A stretch of 64,000 nt of DNA from a virus, in the IMG/VR virus record IMGVR_UViG_2716884766_000001, positions 32,001-96,000 of that record; one strand, given 5' to 3'. Each line of letters opens with the position of its first letter. Position 1 is the first letter of the stretch. The position numbers and the translations under genes were made by a program. Positions 47,654 through 60,200 of this stretch are shown piece by piece. The notes beneath the pieces were generated by a model that made no database searches, was not told the DNA's origin, and saw nothing but the letters and a program-made list of their open reading frames with translations.

Positions 47654-47955
47654 TAGTATCGTTTTGGTATTTTGTGATATGGTGAATCATCTTCATTGTC
47701 ATCATATAAGTCGTCGTTGATATCCTCTAGGAGAATATCCAACTCAAATCCCTCTTCTAAAAGGTATGAACTACCTCTATATAGGTCTTCATTTGTGAAA
47801 TGAGGTTTCTCTTCAGCAGTAACAACACTCTTTATATTGTCAGGAGTGTCATCTTCATCGAATGAGAATGGGATGCCATTTATAAAGTATACCTTACAAA
47901 CCCCCACTCCGTCAATGGTACGGAACTCTTTGTATAGTTGGGTTATCTCTTCCAT
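47653..47955 (-). CDS. Hypothetical acidic protein
   Basis: YFINGIPFSFDE...LYRGSSYLLEEG. Confidence 0.6.
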   Translation of the reverse strand: MEEITQLYKEFRTIDGVGVCKVYFINGIPFSFDEDDTPDNIKSVVTAEEKPHFTNEDLYRGSSYLLEEGFELDILLEDINDDLYDDNEDDSPYHKIPKRY

Positions 47956-48680
47956 AAAAAATCAAAAGGGCATTTGTTTTCTTCTTCCTCTTCTTTCCTC
48001 AATCTTTCTTTGATGAGGTTCCACGAGTAGTTTTTGTGCCAGTCTTTGAGCCACAAGCTTTGTAGTTGTCGCTTAAGCACTTTTTTAGGGATGGATCGCT
48101 TTTCAAGTGTGAATTTGACATCTCTTGTTCTTTGGCTAGAGAATCTAACATAGCAAAGCGGGGATCCTTTTTCGAGCCAGATGTTTGAGTCATAGTTCTT
48201 GATTGTAAATCCTAAATTAATAGGTCTTGTCCAAACTGATAGTGGGAAAGTGCCAGACACTACGTCTAGTCCTCTCCTTGTCATGTCGGGATGTTGGAAC
48301 TGTTCAATCCATACGTCACTGTCCTCTGTCCAAAAACAATAACCTTGTTTGAATTGTATCTCTGGGTGTTCTCCCTCTGTCCAACCATCACCAAGCATGA
48401 CATACTCATCGAACACATCTTGTCCAAGATTAGTCTCTAAGTATTGTTCGGCAGATTTATATAGGAGACCAAGTGGGAAGCATTGCTTCATCACCCATGT
48501 GTTCCTGTAATATTCTTTAAAGGCAGGGCACTTAGAATGTCTATACTCTGGGTATCCTTTGAGGGCAGGAGTTGGTGCCTCAAAGTAATCATCAGCGAAG
48601 AAATCGAGTTCCCCTTCATCAAGGAAACTCTCTTCACTTCCACCCATTACATAGTTGTAAAATATTTTTTTAGTCTTCAT
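47943..48680 (-). CDS. Hypothetical protein with two KCP motifs (possible dUTPase-like beta fold)
   Basis: SKCPAF near the N-terminus, [18 protein letters not shown] and a C-terminal KCPF. Confidence 0.5.
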
Positions 48681-53021: not shown

Positions 53022-54301
53022 CCTAAGTTATCCCTGTACAGAGTTACTCTAGTAGACATCATGTCTCTCTCAGATAAGAATTGTCTGTATATCTTGCCTA
53101 CTATGTATTTACCACTAATGACAGGTTCCTTTTTACCAGTTCTTGCATTGTACTTATTGACTTGAACAACCTGTCCGATCTTTAGATCTTGCATGCCCTC
53201 ATATTCAAAGGTAGCAGACTGATTAAAAAATAGTTGATTCCTTATCATAGACTGTGAAAGTTGTTTTGTCAAGTCTTGTGTGTATGTACCCTCTGTGTAC
53301 ATAGCAGTATCTAAAACCTTAGACATAATTCTAGTAGGTCTACCACCAGTCTCCTCACTACCAAATCTTTCGTAGAAGCTTGGCAATTCTCTTGGGTTTA
53401 ACTTCTTCATTGTTGGATAGAAGTCCTTGATAAAGAAGGGTATCTCTTCATACTTAAAGTCCTTCATGTTTAAAGTAAAGGTTGTACTAGCATAACTACC
53501 TAGATTGATACCACGAAACAAATCACTGGTCTCACTGACACTAAATCCAAAGATGTGTATATCCTTCATCTCTTCATCATCCCCATCCTCATTATCTGGA
53601 GCATAGTTGACATTTATATCTCTTGATGGTGCTTGCTGAGTTAAAGCATCCATAGATCTGAAGAAATAACCGTCAACATTTTCATAGAACAGATATCCCG
53701 CACTCTTTTTACCACTACCACCTTCCTCTATTGATCTCCAAGCTAACCAACTAATAATTGTATAAGGATCCCAGTATGGACTCACGAATGACAATTTAGT
53801 TGTGGATTTATCCACTACAAGTGGTCTGCTAGATGCTAGATCTTTCTTTAACAGTTCATCTACCATCTCATTTGTAAACTGTCCTCCACCTTTACCAAAT
53901 CTCCTTGATATCTTTGTAGCACTATTTCTTACCGCATCTATACTGATACAGTATAAGGTTGCTTGTGACTGTTTACCATCTTTTATCATACGATCTTTAA
54001 TATCATATACAACTAATGATTGTTTTATCACATTACCTTCCATACCCTCACTAAGAGAGTCATCTGTCCATATCAGTTCGACTGGATCCATACCTACCAG
54101 AGAATCCAACACTCCACTTCCACTATCATTAATCTTTAACATGATAAGGAGGTTTGACTTGGTGATGTCCTCAATATAATGTAACTCTATCAAGTGATTA
54201 GATGATAGAGAAACAACAAGGAATCCCTGATCACCAGACTCCTCACTCTTGGTAGAGATACCTATATCAAGTTGAATTAATCGGAAATTAGTTTGCTTCA
54301 T
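53018..54301 (-). CDS. Putative baseplate hub protein (gp27-like)
   Basis: YIEDI, P..IISWL, YLFYEN..GYFFRS and SGKYIV; immediately upstream of gp5. Confidence 0.55.
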   Translation of the reverse strand: MKQTNFRLIQLDIGISTKSEESGDQGFLVVSLSSNHLIELHYIEDITKSNLLIMLKINDSGSGVLDSLVGMDPVELIWTDDSLSEGMEGNVIKQSLVVYDIKDRMIKDGKQSQATLYCISIDAVRNSATKISRRFGKGGGQFTNEMVDELLKKDLASSRPLVVDKSTTKLSFVSPYWDPYTIISWLAWRSIEEGGSGKKSAGYLFYENVDGYFFRSMDALTQQAPSRDINVNYAPDNEDGDDEEMKDIHIFGFSVSETSDLFRGINLGSYASTTFTLNMKDFKYEEIPFFIKDFYPTMKKLNPRELPSFYERFGSEETGGRPTRIMSKVLDTAMYTEGTYTQDLTKQLSQSMIRNQLFFNQSATFEYEGMQDLKIGQVVQVNKYNARTGKKEPVISGKYIVGKIYRQFLSERDMMSTRVTLYRDNLG

Positions 54302-55842
54302 ACTACATCATGTGGGGTTTGACCACCGTCTACTGCTGTTATGTTGGCAAGAAGATACTTACTGACTTCTAGTTCAGTGGGTGCGACTGCTGCCTTCATG
54401 TCCATAGTTATACCATTACCCATAGCCATTTTTGATGTCAGTGCCTTTACCTTAGATGTAAACTCATCTTCTTGGTTCTGATCCATAGTATCAGGGACTA
54501 CGAGAGTATTCAGCTCTGCCATTGATACTTCATTTAACTCAATAACTTGATTGGTCAAACTGTTGATGTCTTGATCATTTGTCTGAGCACCAATATCAGC
54601 CTTAAATACTCCACCTAAAATCTGGTTTAGTATACTAGCACCCTTATTGATTATTTTACCAGCTGTTGTACTCTTGAATATGCTCTTAGCAGACTCAGCT
54701 ATATTTGTGATAGCAGTTTTAGTCTGATCATAATGAGTATTTGCTGAAGCATATATCTTATCTGGAGGTGAACCATCTAGAGAAGGTCCTCCAGTTCCAT
54801 TTAACATCTCAATCAATCTATCATTCTGCATTCTACGGTTTTGTATTCCCGTAACAGCAGCACCCATAGGAGTGTCTCCAGATACTTTATGATCCTTGTC
54901 CTTAGCAAGTCCCATTAAGTTTGTGATAGTAGAGAAGAATCCACCACCAGCTATGAGTTGTTCTTTCTTACTCTCAACGTTCTTGGTAGACTCACTTGAC
55001 TCACTACCCATGTCAGGTTTCGGTAAGTCGAATGCGTCAGTAATATTGCTTATCTGTGACTTTGCTGCCATAAACTCTGGTGAGTCAGGCATATTCAAAG
55101 CACTTAATAATCCACCTAGACCAGCTGCCACTGCTTTCAATGGTAATCCCATAGCAGCTGCTAGAGCAGTCTTATACTTATCAAGTCCAAGATCTCCCGC
55201 AAATTCAGAAGCGACGTTAGAATCACCATCAAGTCCTAAATCCTCAAGTGGCGTGATACCACCTGATTTTTTCTGCTTTTGAGGTTGCAGAGAATTGAAC
55301 ATAGGACTAGCAGTAGCACCTGGAACATATCCACCTTTTGCTAGTTTAGTATCAGGTGTCTGACTAGGAGTGGTAGTTAGATCCTTACCAGTATTGCTAG
55401 GAGGTTGTATTTTAGTTTCACCATCCTTACCTGGCGGACCAGGTTGACCATCGACTCCATCTGTACCATCTTCTCCATCTCTACCCTCTACAATTTCTTC
55501 TTCATCCTCTTCATCCATGCCATCATCAAGATCAATCGGTGCATCGAGATCCATTATTGGCAATGATGCAGGATTGATGAAGTTAGCAAACTTCCTCATC
55601 GTGGTCTGAGCTTTGAGTATCTCATAACCATTAGCTAAATCTTGTTTTATTCCACCTTTTCTAGAATCATCTCTATTATCTGCCTCTATCATTGACTGAA
55701 TATTTTCTGCCAATAGGAAGTCCTTATACTTGTCCTCCTTCATCATAGTGTGAAGCATCGCATTGCGATCTTCAAAGAGATTGGTCAGATCACTCAGTAT
55801 TACATGTACATCTTCTAAAGTGGGAAACTCTTTACTATCCAT
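54298..55842 (-). CDS. Tape-measure-like / virion protein with a short collagen-like repeat
   Basis: Helical composition, GRDGEDGTDGVDGQPGPPGKDG and LAKGG motifs; lies downstream of gp51. Confidence 0.5.
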   Translation of the reverse strand: MDSKEFPTLEDVHVILSDLTNLFEDRNAMLHTMMKEDKYKDFLLAENIQSMIEADNRDDSRKGGIKQDLANGYEILKAQTTMRKFANFINPASLPIMDLDAPIDLDDGMDEEDEEEIVEGRDGEDGTDGVDGQPGPPGKDGETKIQPPSNTGKDLTTTPSQTPDTKLAKGGYVPGATASPMFNSLQPQKQKKSGGITPLEDLGLDGDSNVASEFAGDLGLDKYKTALAAAMGLPLKAVAAGLGGLLSALNMPDSPEFMAAKSQISNITDAFDLPKPDMGSESSESTKNVESKKEQLIAGGGFFSTITNLMGLAKDKDHKVSGDTPMGAAVTGIQNRRMQNDRLIEMLNGTGGPSLDGSPPDKIYASANTHYDQTKTAITNIAESAKSIFKSTTAGKIINKGASILNQILGGVFKADIGAQTNDQDINSLTNQVIELNEVSMAELNTLVVPDTMDQNQEDEFTSKVKALTSKMAMGNGITMDMKAAVAPTELEVSKYLLANITAVDGGQTPHDVV

Positions 55843-56750
55843 TATAACGCACCATATTTACCTGAGAATGGACTAACACCCAATACCACCTTTCTCTCTA
55901 CCTTCTTCTCTATGACTCTATTAACAGGGAAGGGGACGGGATTATAATATGGGAGTGGAACGAACATTAATTGTGGTTTTGTGACAGCAACAGTTGAGTT
56001 TTCATTAGGTATCAGTCCTGATGCCTTAGCAGGAGAGAAAGAAGCACCTCCCATTGCTCCGTTACTACTTGGCCACTTAACTGTATTAGTTAATGGATAA
56101 CCGTAACTGGGACCTCCTGTACCCTCCTCTGATGGAGGTTCAAAGTTACCTAACTTTATTAGAGGTGCGAATGGAAGTGGATCTCCTGCTCCACCATATC
56201 TAGTTGAGTCTTTCTTATCATCGTATTCAAAGTGCAAATGAGGACCTGTAGAATTACCTGCACCAGGATCTCCCTTAGCACCACCAGTCTTTGCGAGAAC
56301 CTCTCCCGCTAAAAATTCCCCAGATTTTTTTACGAAGGAACTTAAATGAGCAATACGCATTTGTATTCCAGTATTAGGTAGCCATACGTCCATCATGTTA
56401 CCATAACCACCATATCTTCCTGCTGCCAATATCTCACCACCTTCAGAAAAACCTACGGGTGTACCTGTGGGAGTAGCAACGTCCACACCACCATGAGGTC
56501 TTGTTCTATTCTCTGTTGAACCATAGTAATCAGTGATGTTAAAATTAGATACCATTGTTTTATCACCCTGTATGGTTGTGGTAGCAGTATCAGCAGTGTT
56601 AACAGCAGAGCTAGCAATTTGTGTAACCATGTCTGGTTGAGCCATCACTGGTCTCTTCAATATATTCATAATCAATCCAGCTATAGGATTAGCAGCTGTA
56701 AATGCTCTCCTTGCTGTGCCAATCAGTTTATTTGTAATCTTTTTTACCAT
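55842..56750 (-). CDS. M23 family peptidase (virion-associated peptidoglycan hydrolase)
   Basis: HGGVD, GYGN, AHL and STGPHLHFE. Confidence 0.85.
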   Translation of the reverse strand: MVKKITNKLIGTARRAFTAANPIAGLIMNILKRPVMAQPDMVTQIASSAVNTADTATTTIQGDKTMVSNFNITDYYGSTENRTRPHGGVDVATPTGTPVGFSEGGEILAAGRYGGYGNMMDVWLPNTGIQMRIAHLSSFVKKSGEFLAGEVLAKTGGAKGDPGAGNSTGPHLHFEYDDKKDSTRYGGAGDPLPFAPLIKLGNFEPPSEEGTGGPSYGYPLTNTVKWPSSNGAMGGASFSPAKASGLIPNENSTVAVTKPQLMFVPLPYYNPVPFPVNRVIEKKVERKVVLGVSPFSGKYGAL

Positions 56751-58086
56751 TGAAAATCTTTGGAATCACACCGCCAGGAAATAGTCCACCTAACTTATTT
56801 GCTTCTGATAATACTTTTTGTGTGTCTGAACTAGGAGTTGGTAGTGTAGTAAGGAATCCTTTAGTGATGCCAAGCATCATAGCACCTACTTCCTTGAATA
56901 GACTAGACATTACCTTACCCATCTTAGAGTGAGGTATAACCAGTTCTCCTTCACCACCTTCACCGATTAACGCTTTAGTAGGACGTGTGACTTGTCCACC
57001 TTCTGAGAAAGGGAGTACTCCCTTCTGACTCTTGCCACTATAAGTGCCAGTATTTTCATCAAATGCTGCGTATGGATCTTGTCCACTAAGAACTTGAACA
57101 AGTTCAAATATTGTCAATCCCCATCCCGCAATCTGTGAGACAACTTGAGCGATAGCTGGAACAGCAGCACCTACACCAGTGACAGATGCAGGAGCAGTTC
57201 CTAGAGTTGTTGCGTCAGCACCCATGTCTAGAGCAGCAAGAGCAGTGCCGAGCCATCCTTTCCAACCACCTATTTTCTGATAACGAACCATATCATTAGC
57301 TGACAGTGCCATACTTGCTACTGGAATTGCTCGTCCAGAACCTTTCGCCATAACTTTGGAAAGGTTCTTGAACATCTTAGAGTTCTTTAGAGTTTTAACT
57401 ACTGACTTCGCATTATCAACCATCATTGGTGCTTTCTTCCACAAGTCTTTTATCCTCTTGATGCCACCGTCCATCATGGCACCGCTGACATTTTTGACTC
57501 TAGTAGCACCTCCAACTATTTTCTTCTTCAAGAAACTTCCTGCACTGGTTAATTTCTTACCCGCATAGTTGATGCCCTGCATCCCTTTTTTTGCTATCCA
57601 CTTTCCACCTTGTTTTACTTTATTTCCAGCTGCTATACCTTTATCTTTTATCTTATTTCCAATTCTTGCTATATTTCTAGGATTAAGAAACTTAAGCGGA
57701 CCTCTATATACTGCTTTCTTTCCTAAAGCAGGTGCACCACCAAGTCTTAATGCTCTCGCTCTTATACCACGAGCAAATCTACCTATCTTACTGCCCTTAC
57801 CGAAACTTTTAAACCTAAGTCTCTTCTTTTTCTTAAGGAATCTTCTATTTCTGGGTATACCAAAACCACCACCATCACCACCGTCTGCGTCTCTATCCCT
57901 CTTTCTTCCACCAACTACAACTCTTTGCTGTAGCAAGTTCGTCATTATGAAGAACTTCTTTCTATTCCTGAGATAGTCGATGTACTCCATCTCAGTGTCG
58001 AGCATATTCTTGGCTGTACGAGTCATCTTACCTGATACAGGTAAGAGTTTAACTCCTAACATCTTAGAGATAGCACGACGATTCAT
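56728..58086 (-). CDS. Tape-measure-like, highly basic protein
   Basis: K/R-rich N-half, hydrophobic helices and FSEGG...IGEGGEGELVIP; its ATG overlaps the gp51 stop. Confidence 0.5.
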   Translation of the reverse strand: MNRRAISKMLGVKLLPVSGKMTRTAKNMLDTEMEYIDYLRNRKKFFIMTNLLQQRVVVGGRKRDRDADGGDGGGFGIPRNRRFLKKKKRLRFKSFGKGSKIGRFARGIRARALRLGGAPALGKKAVYRGPLKFLNPRNIARIGNKIKDKGIAAGNKVKQGGKWIAKKGMQGINYAGKKLTSAGSFLKKKIVGGATRVKNVSGAMMDGGIKRIKDLWKKAPMMVDNAKSVVKTLKNSKMFKNLSKVMAKGSGRAIPVASMALSANDMVRYQKIGGWKGWLGTALAALDMGADATTLGTAPASVTGVGAAVPAIAQVVSQIAGWGLTIFELVQVLSGQDPYAAFDENTGTYSGKSQKGVLPFSEGGQVTRPTKALIGEGGEGELVIPHSKMGKVMSSLFKEVGAMMLGITKGFLTTLPTPSSDTQKVLSEANKLGGLFPGGVIPKIFNGKKDYK

Positions 58087-58289
58087 CTTCTCTTACGTGA
58101 TTGACGTTCCTTTTCTATACGTTCCCTTTCATCGTTTAACCACTTAGAAAGCATATTGACGTAAATGTCACGCTCCCAAGGGATCATATTCTCTATGTCA
58201 CTCAAGGTATATTTATGGTGTTGAACCAAGGCAAAATTCGTCTGATAGAACCTTGCTAACCCTTCTTGGAATAGGGCTATCCGAAAAAA
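58083..58289 (-). CDS. gp51: Baseplate hub assembly protein gp51-like, in the -1 frame relative to gp26
   Basis: Not in track; reads ...FYQTNFALVQHHKYTLSDIENMIPWERDIYVNML...; no ATG/GTG ahead of the conserved segment. Confidence 0.8.
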   Translation of the reverse strand, partial: FFRIALFQEGLARFYQTNFALVQHHKYTLSDIENMIPWERDIYVNMLSKWLNDERERIEKERQSRKRR

Positions 58290-58975
58290 TTGACTAATCC
58301 TTCGATGACACTAGAAGTTTTGACACCTGTGTTAGGATTAGTAACTGTAAGCTCATGGCGAAGAGTAGGCATAGTATCAAAGAACTTTTGGATACTTTCA
58401 AACTGATCAGTAGTAAGTTGCTCAAGCCAGTCTTGAGCCTCTTTAGGTGTGAACGATCCACAATCTTCTTCTCCTTGGTAAACTCTGTCGATGCATGTAG
58501 ATACCAATTCATATGGATCTACCTCTTCCTCAGTGAAATTAATCTTTGTAAAGTATTCTAGGTTAGGATACTTCATCACCACTGTCACACTCTCGTTAAC
58601 TTTGATTGTATTGTTATGTCCTTCTGGGAAGTTAACCTTAATCTGATCAACGGGAATAGTCACGGGGACTTTCGTCTTTGGATCATCTTCACATGGTACT
58701 TCTATTTCAATGGTTTCTTGAATAGACCTACCACGTAGTTGTAAAAAGATATACTCAACGTCAAAGATAGACAAGTCATCCATCTTAAATCTAGTATTGA
58801 TACAACTCTTAAATATAGTCTTTATTGCTTCTAGTATCTGTGAGGTATTGTTTTCCTCTAATGCTAGGATCAGAACCTTCTGTTCTTTAACTAAAAAGGG
58901 GCGATATTTTAGTTTCTTTTTGGTTGATGGTACTACCAACTCATACGTTGGCGTAACAAGTTCAGGTAATGGCAT
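58277..58975 (-). CDS. gp26: Baseplate hub subunit/chaperone gp26
   Basis: MPLP....PTYEL..PST...KYRPFLVKEQKVL, FDVEYIFLQLRGRS.E and a C-terminal EGL.NFF. Confidence 0.9.
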   Translation of the reverse strand: MPLPELVTPTYELVVPSTKKKLKYRPFLVKEQKVLILALEENNTSQILEAIKTIFKSCINTRFKMDDLSIFDVEYIFLQLRGRSIQETIEIEVPCEDDPKTKVPVTIPVDQIKVNFPEGHNNTIKVNESVTVVMKYPNLEYFTKINFTEEEVDPYELVSTCIDRVYQGEEDCGSFTPKEAQDWLEQLTTDQFESIQKFFDTMPTLRHELTVTNPNTGVKTSSVIEGLVNFFG

Positions 58976-59002: not shown

Positions 59003-59695
59003 TCAAGCTTCTACAGAGATACTTTTTGAGCCAGCATCTAGTAATTCAGAGTACTCATAGTACATACCTACGCTTAGTTTAACAACTCCTGATCCACCAG
59101 AACTATATGGTATAGATGAAACCATATATGGATAAGAGTTAATTAGTTTTACTGTCCACACATGGTACTGCTCGTTTGAATTATTTGTTGTTACTGCCCC
59201 TCCTGCTTGTGGATCATACTTTTCAAACTTCTTGATTATAGTATCACATACGTATGACTTATAGTAGTGCTGTACATATGCTCTGTCATATACTCTACCT
59301 TGAGCAACAAAGTCTATGTTAGCAGGATTACCTGTTATAAAATCTTGCCATCCTCTGAAAAATTTATATGCTTCTGACTGAATATCAAGTATAAACGACA
59401 TATCCATCTCATTGAACACCTTTGCCATAGCTGGTTTCATGTTGATACCTTTATGTATTCCCTTGACATCCTGAGACACCATTGATACACCTGGTATCTG
59501 GATCTCGTTTGCCATATCAACCATCAACTTATTAAAGGAGTTGTTTTTGACTCCATATGATTCTAACCACTTAGCTAATTCGCCATTGACTCCCGCAGGA
59601 TCAATACCGAACTGCAGATCATATTGGTTAGTAGAGGACGGACCTCCACTGAACTTTAGATCAGTTAAAAATTTTGTAACGCTCTTCAGTGCCAT
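59003..59695 (-). CDS. Tail tube-like protein (gp54/gp19 family)
   Basis: IPG.S, FFRGWQD.I, L.NSYP and L.V...YEY pattern; start set at ATG 59695. Confidence 0.6.
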   Translation of the reverse strand: MALKSVTKFLTDLKFSGGPSSTNQYDLQFGIDPAGVNGELAKWLESYGVKNNSFNKLMVDMANEIQIPGVSMVSQDVKGIHKGINMKPAMAKVFNEMDMSFILDIQSEAYKFFRGWQDFITGNPANIDFVAQGRVYDRAYVQHYYKSYVCDTIIKKFEKYDPQAGGAVTTNNSNEQYHVWTVKLINSYPYMVSSIPYSSGGSGVVKLSVGMYYEYSELLDAGSKSISVEA

Positions 59696-59728
59696 AAATA
59701 CACTACATGGGGTGGTATTTTTATTTAT
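59694..59728. promoter_or_regulatory. Pair of face-to-face late promoters (ATAAATA on each strand)
   Basis: Plus-strand ATAAATA at 59694-59700 and minus-strand ATAAATA at 59722-59728. Confidence 0.65.
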
Positions 59729-60200
59729 GTCTCTAAAACAAGGAAAGTTCAAACCCAAGAACTATAAGAAATATAAAGGGGATCCAACTAACGTATTTTA
59801 CAGGTCTGGTTGGGAACTTAAGTTCATGAACTGGTGTGATAGTGACAGATCAGTGCTTAGTTGGTCATCGGAAGAGATAATAATTCCATACAAATGTCCT
59901 ACCGATAACAGAGTACACAGGTATTTCCCAGACTTCTGGGTTAAGATACAGGAGTCAACAGGAGTTAAACAGTATCTTGTAGAGGTCAAACCTCTAAAAC
60001 AGACACAAGTACCCAAACCTCAGAAACGTCAAACCCAAAGGTATCTAACGGAGGTTATGACCTATGCTAAAAACGATGCAAAGTGGAGGGCAGCTCAGGA
60101 ATTCTGCGACGACAGAGGATGGAAGTTCAGACTCATCACAGAACGAGAACTCAGAATTAACTACACTGCTCCTAAACCTAAAAGGAAGCAAGGTAAGTAG
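59727..60200 (+). CDS. gp4: Head completion nuclease gp4
   Basis: GKFKPKN.KKYKGDP....YRS.WELKFM.WCD, HRYFPDF, EVKP and N.AKW.AA; start set at ATG 59727. Confidence 0.9.
   Translation: MSLKQGKFKPKNYKKYKGDPTNVFYRSGWELKFMNWCDSDRSVLSWSSEEIIIPYKCPTDNRVHRYFPDFWVKIQESTGVKQYLVEVKPLKQTQVPKPQKRQTQRYLTEVMTYAKNDAKWRAAQEFCDDRGWKFRLITERELRINYTAPKPKRKQGK

What the first reader, a model, noticed from the sequence alone, without database searches (positions are those of the whole stretch)
58083..58305. Probable programmed -1 frameshift fusing gp26 to a start-less gp51 (lambda G/GT-like)
Seen in sequence: gp26 ends AAT TTT TTC GGA TAG, which contains a canonical X XXY YYZ slippery heptamer, T TTT TTC (58289-58283, minus strand). 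The -1 frame is open from there to a TGA at 58083 that overlaps the next ATG, and it encodes the gp51 signature (NFALVQHHKY...IENMIPWERDIYV). That frame has a stop 8 codons upstream of the heptamer and no ATG/GTG before the conserved segment. A 7-bp hairpin (UAGCCCU/AGGGUUA, 58279-58257) begins 3 nt after the heptamer, and an SD-like AAGGA lies 8 nt before it. Established: lambda G/GT-type tail assembly chaperones use a -1 frameshift just upstream of the tape measure gene, and internal SD sequences and 3' hairpins stimulate -1 shifts (as in dnaX). Inference: the phage makes gp26 (232 aa) and a gp26-gp51 fusion (~297 aa), so cyanophage gp26/gp51 may be a G/GT-like pair. I am not aware of this being described for T4-like phages.
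Basis: partly seen in the sequence, partly recalled or inferred. Interest (0 to 1): 0.88.

Follow-up and report, generated by a model that had tools for sequence, protein, structure and literature searches.

The report
Frameshift in cyanophage tail-chaperone gene gp26/gp51
One tail-assembly gene of this T4-like cyanophage very probably makes a short (232 aa) and a long (297 aa) protein because some ribosomes slip back one base on a strictly conserved TTTTTTC, but the gp26/gp51 chaperone pair of T4-like phages and its poly-T slip signal appear to have been published in 2022, so this is a well-supported instance of a known thing that genome annotations still miss.

Summary
gp26 (58277-58975, minus) ends AAT TTT TTC GGA TAG. 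The -1 frame is open from the heptamer (58289-58283) to a TGA that overlaps the next ATG.

In 80 distinct related loci (gp26 identity 37-94%) the run is always exactly T6 and always in X_XXY_YYZ phase. The 'gp51' frame is always -1 and never has a start codon before codon 5. Its product aligns without gaps from its first residue. Only one PF12322 gene exists in this assembly.

T4 gp51 is a gp26-like domain plus the same C-terminal extension, so it has the architecture of the predicted fusion. The N-terminal ~90 residues of the gp26 model resemble solved tail assembly chaperones (Z 6.7-7.3). RNA structure is enriched just 3' of the heptamer: median z is -2.96, against -0.2 to -0.66 at control offsets.

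It is probably not new. [quoted passage not shown] I could not read that paper.

This scan has noted the same thing at least 274 times in at least 243 other genomes. Follow-ups that said 'no paper' missed this reference.

Ribosomal versus RNA-polymerase slippage is not settled. No GenBank record I inspected annotates the fusion.

The parts
58277..58975 (-). gp26 / short chaperone form (TAC-N), 232 aa, zero frame, stop TAG 58279-58277
   Evidence: the ORF listing. Pfam PF12322 T4_baseplate E 3e-63. phrog_150 'baseplate hub' positions 5-232 of 282. AF2 model pLDDT 85.6. It is the only PF12322 match in the whole assembly.
58283..58289 (-). Slippery heptamer T_TTT_TTC (X_XXY_YYZ); one sense codon (GGA), then the zero-frame stop
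   Evidence: Sequence. In 80 of 80 distinct related loci the run is exactly T6, in this phase, and followed by C (54 loci) or A (26 loci). The preceding codon varies (GAT, AGT, AAT, GCT, TCT) but always ends in T.
58083..58282 (-). -1 frame extension ('gp51', TAC-C part): 66 codons after the two Phe of the heptamer, plus stop TGA 58085-58083. The predicted long form is 231 + 66 = 297 aa.
   Evidence: No start codon before -1 codon 20 here and before codon 5 in any locus. Ungapped alignment conserved from residue 1. Entropy by codon position is 0.66/0.56/1.33 in codons 3-19. It aligns to T4 gp51 residues 200-246 and to phrog_150 positions 236-278.
58257..58279 (-). Hairpin 1 (UAGCCCU / AGGGUUA, 9-nt loop), 3 nt after the heptamer
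   Evidence: Alone it is -7.5 kcal/mol, z about 0. It is kept in the window's close relatives with a compatible A-to-G change.
58231..58256 (-). Hairpin 2 (GCAAGGUUC / GAAUUUUGC), directly abutting hairpin 1
   Evidence: strand folding: both hairpins together give -16.6 kcal/mol, z -2.83. It is kept in L004 and L006-L010 through G.U, G-C and A-U exchanges.
58298..58302 (-). SD-like AAGGA, 8 nt 5' of the heptamer (codons Glu-Gly of gp26)
   Evidence: GG is invariant but is the first two bases of a conserved Gly codon. Three loci have ACTGGA or TCTGGT. The signal cannot be separated from the protein constraint.
59003..59758 (-). Upstream tail-tube-like gene (probable real start ATG at 59695)
   Evidence: Pfam Phage_TTP_2 E 5e-12. 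phrog_45 'tail tube'. The same neighbour is present in KVP40, phiN3, phiAS5, LPCS28 and Milchi.
56728..58086 (-). Downstream tape-measure-like gene, 452 aa. Its ATG overlaps the TGA of the -1 extension (ATGA).
   Evidence: the ORF listing. Weak matches to phrog_10093 'tail length tape measure protein' (E 2e-8) and phrog_11440. It is followed by an M23 peptidase ORF, 55842-56750.

Best explanation
gp26 is the tail (baseplate-hub) assembly chaperone gene of this T4-like cyanophage, and it is decoded in two ways. Most ribosomes read AAT TTT TTC GGA and stop, giving the 232-aa short form.

A minority slip back one base while tRNA-Phe occupies UUU in the P site and UUC in the A site. Both can re-pair with UUU. 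Translation then continues in the -1 frame for 66 more codons and gives a 297-aa long form, ...GLVNFF-RIALFQEG...

RNA structure directly 3' of the heptamer probably raises the slip rate. In this phage that structure is two abutting hairpins. The long form has the architecture of T4 gp51, and the short form that of T4 gp26. T4 encodes the same pair as two diverged genes.

By analogy with lambda gpG/gpGT, the shared part would hold the tape-measure-like protein encoded next. The helical extension would recruit a tube or hub partner.

What is shown: the sequence anatomy, its conservation, coding constraint in the -1 frame from the heptamer onward, homology to T4 gp51, and chaperone-like fold. 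What is inferred: that the shift happens on the ribosome, its efficiency, and the binding partners.
For: 1. In 80 of 80 distinct loci (gp26 identity 37-94%) the run is T6 in the same phase and the extension lies in the -1 frame.
2. No ATG, GTG or TTG lies between the upstream -1 stop (0-25 codons before the heptamer) and the heptamer in any locus. The first possible start is at codon 5 or later, and at codon 20 here.
3. The -1 product aligns without gaps from residue 1 (FFRIAL.HE.L...Y.TNF...). Arg is kept through CGN/AGR switches that change the zero-frame residue between Phe and Leu.
4. Third-position variability in -1 codons 3-19 is 1.33, against 0.66 and 0.56 at positions 1 and 2.
5. T4 gp51 residues 1-201 match PF12322 (E 4e-52), the family of gp26. 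Its residues 200-246 align to the extension from the heptamer Phe. phrog_150 is colinear with gp26 followed by the extension.
6. There is only one PF12322 gene in the assembly, so no separate long-form gene exists.
7. Distant myoviruses keep T_TTT_TTN plus a -1 extension: KVP40, phiAS5, LPCS28, phiN3, Melnitz, BUCT608, X1 and Milchi.
8. The top three of 48,161 chains for the gp26 model are tail assembly chaperones or relatives: 3FGX Z 7.3, YqbN 3KLU Z 7.0, HK97 TAC 2OB9 Z 6.7. Each has about 85 aligned residues, and the next unrelated row has Z 4.0.
9. The 53 nt after the heptamer have median z -2.96, with 65% of loci below -2. Five control offsets give medians of -0.2 to -0.66 and 5-25% below -2. 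The window itself has z -2.83.
10. UUY A-site codons and all-pyrimidine heptamers are shift-prone in E. coli (PMC4066793).
11. Gene order is tube-like, gp26, extension, tape-measure-like, the same order as lambda V-G-T-H.
Against: There is no direct evidence of the long protein: no mass spectrometry, ribosome profiling or reporter assay.

The 3' structure is not one conserved element. Hairpins sit in different registers in different clades, and about a third of loci show none. Covariation in the Synechococcus-phage clade is modest: 12 double-sided cells against 7.0 expected, 65% of cells paired.

The spacer to hairpin 1 is only 3 nt.

Thirteen other in-phase T_TTT_TTN sites occur in this phage's ORFs with no sign of avoidance. 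The heptamer is therefore either weakly slippery on its own or tolerated.

A one-U insertion by RNA polymerase on the same run would give the identical protein. [quoted passage not shown]
Confidence: 0.75

Rival explanations
1. Transcriptional slippage. The RNA polymerase adds one extra U on the T6 run in a few per cent of transcripts, and normal translation of those mRNAs gives the same 297-aa protein.
For: The product is identical at the protein level. The conserved feature is a homopolymer, which lengthens to T7 in phiN3 and T8 in Melnitz. About a third of loci lack a detectable 3' hairpin. [quoted passage not shown] There is no avoidance of the heptamer elsewhere in the genome.
Against: The run is exactly 6 in 80 of 80 cyanophage-type loci. 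That is shorter than the RNA-DNA hybrid of 9-10 bp (PMC5009743). It is also below the 7-9 or more A/T usually needed by bacterial polymerases; that threshold is my own knowledge and was not tested here.

RNA structure is enriched downstream of the run. That is where it stimulates ribosomes. The known polymerase stimulators are nascent hairpins upstream of the run.

PRFect's summary of the 2022 paper says the 'other mechanism' is separate short and long genes, not polymerase slippage.
Confidence: 0.13
2. gp51 is an independent small protein started at an internal TTG or ATG (codon 20, 28 or 34 here), as GenBank annotates it (30-55 aa). No fusion is made.
For: Database records annotate 30-aa, 44-aa and 55-aa 'gp51' ORFs. 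An ATG at -1 codon 34 is nearly universal. KVP40 and BUCT608 have an ATG at codon 4 overlapping the gp26 stop, which would allow coupled re-initiation.
Against: The 20-33 codons upstream of any start are conserved as protein, ungapped, with third-position wobble. Start positions differ between clades (codons 5, 10/11, 20/21) or are missing. The ATG at codon 34 encodes the Met of the conserved ENM.PWER motif. T4 gp51 and phrog_150 carry the segment fused to a gp26-like domain, with the junction exactly at the heptamer. Several records annotate nothing at all in this stretch.
Confidence: 0.06
3. Sequencing or assembly error in a homopolymer. The real gene has T7 and is a single fused ORF.
For: One Tara contig encodes an in-frame fusion of 300 aa (P0001).
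Against: T6 is found in 80 of 80 distinct loci from many projects and platforms, including finished isolate genomes such as P-HM2, S-RSM4 and S-CAM4. Only one fused protein turned up in a 5.8-billion-protein catalogue.
Confidence: 0.01

Closest known systems
[quoted passage not shown]
   Same: The same gene pair, gp26 and gp51. According to citing papers it reports a short and a long form, with some T4-like phages carrying separate short and long genes (PMC10274946). It is also credited with poly-T -1 frameshift signals in the TAC-N genes of T4-like phages (PMC12846349).
   Different: I could not read the paper. I therefore cannot say whether cyanophages, the strict T6 and phase rule, or the 3' RNA structure are covered, nor which 'other mechanism' it proposes. 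This particular uncultured phage is not in it.
Phage T4 gp26 (208 aa) and gp51 (249 aa), hub assembly chaperones (Leiman et al. 2010, PMC3004832)
   Same: Both are PF12322. gp51 is the gp26-like domain plus a roughly 48-aa extension homologous to the -1 product here. gp51 is required for hub assembly but is absent from the particle.
   Different: In T4 the two are separate, divergently transcribed genes that are only about 20% identical. There is no heptamer and no recoding.
Lambda gpG/gpGT and the conserved -1 frameshift of tail assembly chaperone genes (Levin 1993; Xu, Hendrix & Duda 2004; reviewed in PMC5009743)
   Same: A -1 shift near the 3' end of a chaperone gene that lies between the tube gene and the tape-measure gene. 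It gives a short and a long form sharing the N-terminal part, and neither is in the virion. The N-terminal fold resembles HK97 and YqbN chaperones.
   Different: The heptamer is T_TTT_TTC rather than G_GGA_AAG. gp26 is larger: a roughly 90-aa chaperone-like domain plus a further 140 aa. There is no detectable sequence similarity to gpG. The review states the G-T shift is conserved in long-tailed phages 'except T4'.
E. coli dnaX -1 frameshift (upstream SD plus 3' hairpin)
   Different: Here the SD-like bases are the codons of a conserved Glu-Gly and cannot be shown to be selected as RNA. The hairpin varies between clades. The shifted product is longer than the zero-frame product, not shorter.

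Membership tests
Frameshifted tail assembly chaperone pair (lambda G/GT type) | Second ORF in the -1 frame, overlapping the 3' end of the first and lacking its own start | tested here: met
   -1 frame in 80 of 80 loci, and no start codon between the upstream stop and the heptamer in any locus.
Frameshifted tail assembly chaperone pair (lambda G/GT type) | Conserved X_XXY_YYZ slippery heptamer in phase | tested here: met
   T_TTT_TT(C/A) in 80 of 80 loci. The preceding codon always ends in T although it encodes four different amino acids.
Frameshifted tail assembly chaperone pair (lambda G/GT type) | Position between the tail tube gene and the tape measure gene | tested here: met
   The upstream ORF matches Phage_TTP_2 and phrog_45 'tail tube'. 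The downstream 452-aa ORF matches tape-measure PHROGs only weakly (E 2e-8). The tube side is clear; the tape-measure side is tentative.
Frameshifted tail assembly chaperone pair (lambda G/GT type) | Fold of the shared part like solved tail assembly chaperones | tested here: met
   the top three of 48,161 chains are 3FGX (Z 7.3, rmsd 4.1, 85 aligned), YqbN 3KLU (Z 7.0, rmsd 3.9, 85 aligned) and HK97 TAC 2OB9 (Z 6.7, rmsd 4.0, 84 aligned), all on model residues 1-95. The next unrelated row has Z 4.0. A Z below 8 is middling by the tool's own note, and Foldseek gave only weak rows (2OB9 E 1.0).
Frameshifted tail assembly chaperone pair (lambda G/GT type) | The long form is actually made, at a low fixed ratio | not testable with these tools
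   This needs mass spectrometry, ribosome profiling or a reporter assay.
Frameshifted tail assembly chaperone pair (lambda G/GT type) | The shared part binds the tape measure protein and the extension binds the tube protein | not testable with these tools
Pfam PF12322 T4_baseplate (gp26/gp51 family) | HMM score above the gathering cut-off | tested here: met
   213.8 bits against a cut-off of 24.5, covering profile positions 2-218 of 219.
T4 gp51-type long form | C-terminal extension homologous to T4 gp51 residues ~200-249, colinear with the gp26-like domain | tested here: met
   E 7e-7, 33% identity over 48 residues, starting at the heptamer Phe; phrog_150 positions 5-232 match gp26 and positions 236-278 match the extension.
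Transcriptional slippage site | Long homopolymer run, usually 7-9 or more A/T for bacterial polymerases (threshold from my own knowledge) | tested here: not met
   the run is exactly 6 in 80 of 80 loci. This lowers the likelihood of polymerase slippage but does not exclude low-level slippage.
dnaX-type stimulated -1 frameshift | Selected SD-like element 6-17 nt upstream | tested here: inconclusive
   AAGGA or GAGGG is present in most loci, but it coincides with conserved Glu-Gly codons and is absent in L002, L003 and L057.
dnaX-type stimulated -1 frameshift | Stable RNA structure a few nt 3' of the heptamer | tested here: met
   the window has z -2.83. The family median z is -2.96 at this offset, against -0.2 to -0.66 at controls. 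The structure is not universal, and about a third of loci lack it.

The most novel reading that the evidence does not exclude
The one-gene, -1 frameshift arrangement may be the ancestral and general state of the chaperone gene across Kyanoviridae, non-Tevenvirinae Straboviridae and other T4-related myoviruses, with T4's two genes being a derived duplication. Lineage-specific RNA structures 3' of an invariant T6 heptamer would then tune the short:long ratio. If the 2022 paper did not show this, or argued for a non-ribosomal mechanism in these phages, then the structure enrichment and the strict T6 and phase rule would be new evidence for true ribosomal frameshifting.
Probability: 0.3. Interest if true: 0.45.

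Novelty: new member of a known kind. Interest (0 to 1): 0.3.

Why it matters
The frameshift closes the textbook exception that tail-chaperone frameshifting is conserved in long-tailed phages 'except T4' (PMC5009743). Relatives of T4 do it with one gene, and T4 itself has split the two forms into genes 26 and 51.

The practical point is annotation. All 15 GenBank or RefSeq records I opened either annotate a truncated 30-55-aa 'gp51' or leave the stretch blank. None joins it to gp26. tblastn finds the segment in 540 phage records.

The heptamer with clade-specific 3' structures is also a ready natural series for studying how frameshift efficiency is tuned in cyanobacterial hosts. Because the central idea seems to be published, the value here is confirmation and detail, not discovery.

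Tried and rejected
- megablast of the region against INPHARED found nothing. Relatives are visible only at the protein level.
- Foldseek of the gp26 model against PDB gave no match with E at or below 0.001. The wide VIA-align search was needed.
- Pfam on the 66-aa extension gave only a sub-threshold Stealth_CR2 hit, which I dismissed.
- An Rfam scan of 57900-58500 gave no match.
- A single consensus hairpin for all loci was rejected. The stems use different registers by clade (columns i+j = 67, 68 or 69 of alignment A1). I used per-sequence z-scores with control offsets instead.
- Genome-wide avoidance of the heptamer was not seen.
- A second in-phase T_TTT_TTA near an ORF end (window 47942-48680) is followed directly by an ATG, so it is an ordinary overlapping gene start.
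- The 2022 Virology paper is not held, by DOI or by PubMed id.
- Sequencing error was rejected as an explanation (see rivals).
Full report
**What is in the sequence**

On the minus strand a 232-aa ORF (58277-58975) ends AAT TTT TTC GGA TAG. It is a full-length member of Pfam PF12322 T4_baseplate (E 3e-63) and of phrog_150 'baseplate hub'.

The heptamer T_TTT_TTC occupies 58289-58283 in X_XXY_YYZ phase. From it the -1 frame reads FF-RIALFQEGLARFYQTNFALVQHHKYTLSDIENMIPWERDIYVNMLSKWLNDERERIEKERQSRKRR. It stops at a TGA (58085-58083) that overlaps the ATG of the next ORF.

That frame is closed 8 codons upstream of the heptamer. It has no start codon before a TTG at codon 20 and an ATG at codon 34.

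**Is it more than chance?**

The heptamer alone is not. The 189-kb phage contig carries 14 in-phase T_TTT_TTN sites in 166 ORFs. The evidence is comparative.

tblastn of the 66-aa -1 product finds 540 phage records, and in most the similarity starts at query residue 1, inside the gp26 3' end. I fetched 80 IMG/VR loci plus isolate genomes. Among 80 distinct loci with gp26 identity from 37% to 94%:
- The T run is exactly six bases in all 80.
- It is always in the same phase.
- It is followed by C in 54 loci and by A in 26.
- The extension is always in the -1 frame.
- One sense codon precedes the zero-frame stop in 79 of the 80.

The codon before the run encodes Asp, Ser, Asn or Ala but always ends in T. 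The base after the run switches between C and A. That switch changes the zero-frame residue (Phe or Leu) but keeps Arg in the -1 frame (CGN or AGR). This is the signature of coding constraint in the -1 frame from the heptamer onward.

No locus has ATG, GTG or TTG between the upstream -1 stop and the heptamer. The -1 products align without a single gap from residue 1, with consensus FFriaL.he.l...y.tNF.l.QHhkYsLt..enM.PWERe.Y. In -1 codons 3-19, which lie after the gp26 stop and before the first start in most loci, variability is 0.66 and 0.56 at positions 1 and 2 and 1.33 at position 3.

**Independent support from T4**

In T4, genes 26 and 51 are divergently transcribed. T4 gp51 residues 1-201 match the whole PF12322 profile (E 4e-52), the family of gp26. 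Residues 200-246 align to the window's -1 product starting at the heptamer-encoded Phe (E 7e-7).

phrog_150 is colinear in the same way: gp26 matches positions 5-232 and the extension matches positions 236-278. T4 gp51 therefore has exactly the architecture of the predicted fusion.

This assembly contains only one PF12322 gene. A long form can therefore arise here only by recoding. A catalogue of 5.8 billion proteins yielded a single in-frame fusion (P0001, one short Tara contig), so the two-frame layout is actively maintained.

**Breadth**

The same T_TTT_TTN with a -1 extension is present in these phages:
- Vibrio phage KVP40
- Aeromonas phage phiAS5
- Cronobacter phage LPCS28
- Sinorhizobium phage phiN3 (T7)
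- Methylophilales phage Melnitz (T8)
- Stenotrophomonas phage BUCT608
- Xanthomonas phage X1
- Pseudomonas phage Milchi

An Ackermannviridae phage (S117) has the extension in the -1 frame but only an ATT TTC tetramer. None of the 15 database records I opened joins the two ORFs. 'gp51' is annotated as a 30-55-aa ORF or not at all.

**Chaperone identity**

The AF2 model of gp26 (pLDDT 85.6) has no significant Foldseek match. In an exhaustive alignment against 48,161 chains the three best hits are 3FGX (Z 7.3), B. subtilis YqbN 3KLU (Z 7.0) and the HK97 tail assembly chaperone 2OB9 (Z 6.7). Each has about 85 residues aligned on model residues 1-95, and the first unrelated row has Z 4.0. That YqbN is an XkdN-type tail chaperone is my own knowledge. 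The Z values are middling, but the ranking is specific.

A model of the natural fusion P0001 shows the extension as three to four helices of lower confidence (pLDDT 54-72, rising to 92 at the C-terminus).

Gene order is tube-like gene, gp26, extension, tape-measure-like gene, which is the lambda V-G-T-H order. Leiman et al. list gp26 and gp51 as hub assembly chaperones and state that gp51 is not in the particle (PMC3004832).

**Mechanism**

UUY A-site codons and all-pyrimidine heptamers are shift-prone in E. coli (PMC4066793).

A second hairpin abuts it (58256-58231). Together they give -16.6 kcal/mol and z -2.83. Both are kept in the window's nearest relatives through G.U, G-C and A-U exchanges.

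Across 75 distinct loci the 53 nt after the heptamer have median z -2.96, with 65% below -2. Five control offsets in the same loci give medians of -0.2 to -0.66, with 5-25% below -2.

The structures differ by clade: GCCCUC/GAGGGC in the P-HM group, and GGACUAUC/GAUAGUCC or GGGCUCUC/GAGAGCCC in some Synechococcus-phage lineages. About a third of loci show none. Covariation within one clade is modest. I read this as facultative, lineage-specific stimulators, not one conserved element.

The SD-like AAGGA cannot be separated from the conserved Glu-Gly codons.

A one-U insertion by RNA polymerase would give the same protein and cannot be excluded. The run of only six and the downstream rather than upstream position of the structure favour the ribosome.

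**Prior knowledge**

My searches for gp26, gp51 and frameshift found nothing relevant. The Atkins review says the G-T frameshift is conserved in long-tailed phages 'except T4' (PMC5009743).

[quoted passage not shown]' (Virology 2022). It summarises that paper as saying some T4-like phages carry a short gene and a separate long fusion gene.

A 2025 paper credits the same reference with 'polyT-containing' -1 frameshift signals in the TAC-N genes of T4-like phages (PMC12846349). The paper itself is not held. I therefore treat the central idea as published and this locus as a further member.

**Earlier notes of this scan**

The scan's index holds 274 notes of the same kind in at least 243 genomes. 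Several follow-ups stated that no paper reports the slip, and that statement needs correcting. I reached the T4-paralogue and chaperone-fold conclusions from my own calls, and they agree with those notes.

Noticed in passing
whole assembly G000; the window is C3:32001-96000: The phage is a 189,106-bp contig of 40% GC. It sits inside a 1.6-Mb, 32-contig assembly whose other contigs are 27-37% GC and score about 95% complete. This looks like a picocyanobacterial single-cell or binned genome carrying an infecting or co-binned cyanomyovirus.
   Followed up: partly
window 54298-58086 (-): The tape-measure-like region is three overlapping ORFs here: 452 aa, then a 302-aa M23 peptidase, then 514 aa with a short collagen-like stretch. 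P-HM2, S-CAM4 and S-RSM4 have one ORF of over 600 to about 1000 aa right after gp51.
   Followed up: no
protein P0001 (Tara contig, 1369 bp): This is the only in-frame gp26+extension fusion found (300 aa...GSTGFFRIAL...). Its precomputed Pfam list includes PF28602, which is absent from the local Pfam copy and may be a new family for the extension. I could not inspect the DNA.
   Followed up: partly
L084 (KVP40) 2322; L093 (BUCT608) 2232: In these two phages an ATG at -1 codon 4 overlaps the gp26 stop (TAATG, TGATG). Coupled re-initiation could therefore also give a free extension peptide, although the heptamer is still conserved.
   Followed up: partly
L092 (Salmonella phage S117, Ackermannviridae) 2244-2750: A gp51-like segment (…SYFVMCDELKAHGYSIFEISESMPWHLDLL…) lies in the -1 frame after gp26, in an unannotated 500-nt gap. 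The slip site is only ATT TTC, a U_UUC tetramer.
   Followed up: no
phage contig C3, 166 ORFs: Thirteen other in-phase T_TTT_TTN heptamers occur in ORFs, three of them T7, with no sign of avoidance. One lies at window 47942-48680 (-), six codons before the stop, and is followed directly by the ATG of the next gene.
   Followed up: partly
window 58083-58086: The stop of the -1 extension overlaps the start of the tape-measure-like gene (ATGA). Most related loci have ATGA or TAATG at the same place. Only frameshifted ribosomes terminate at that start codon.
   Followed up: no
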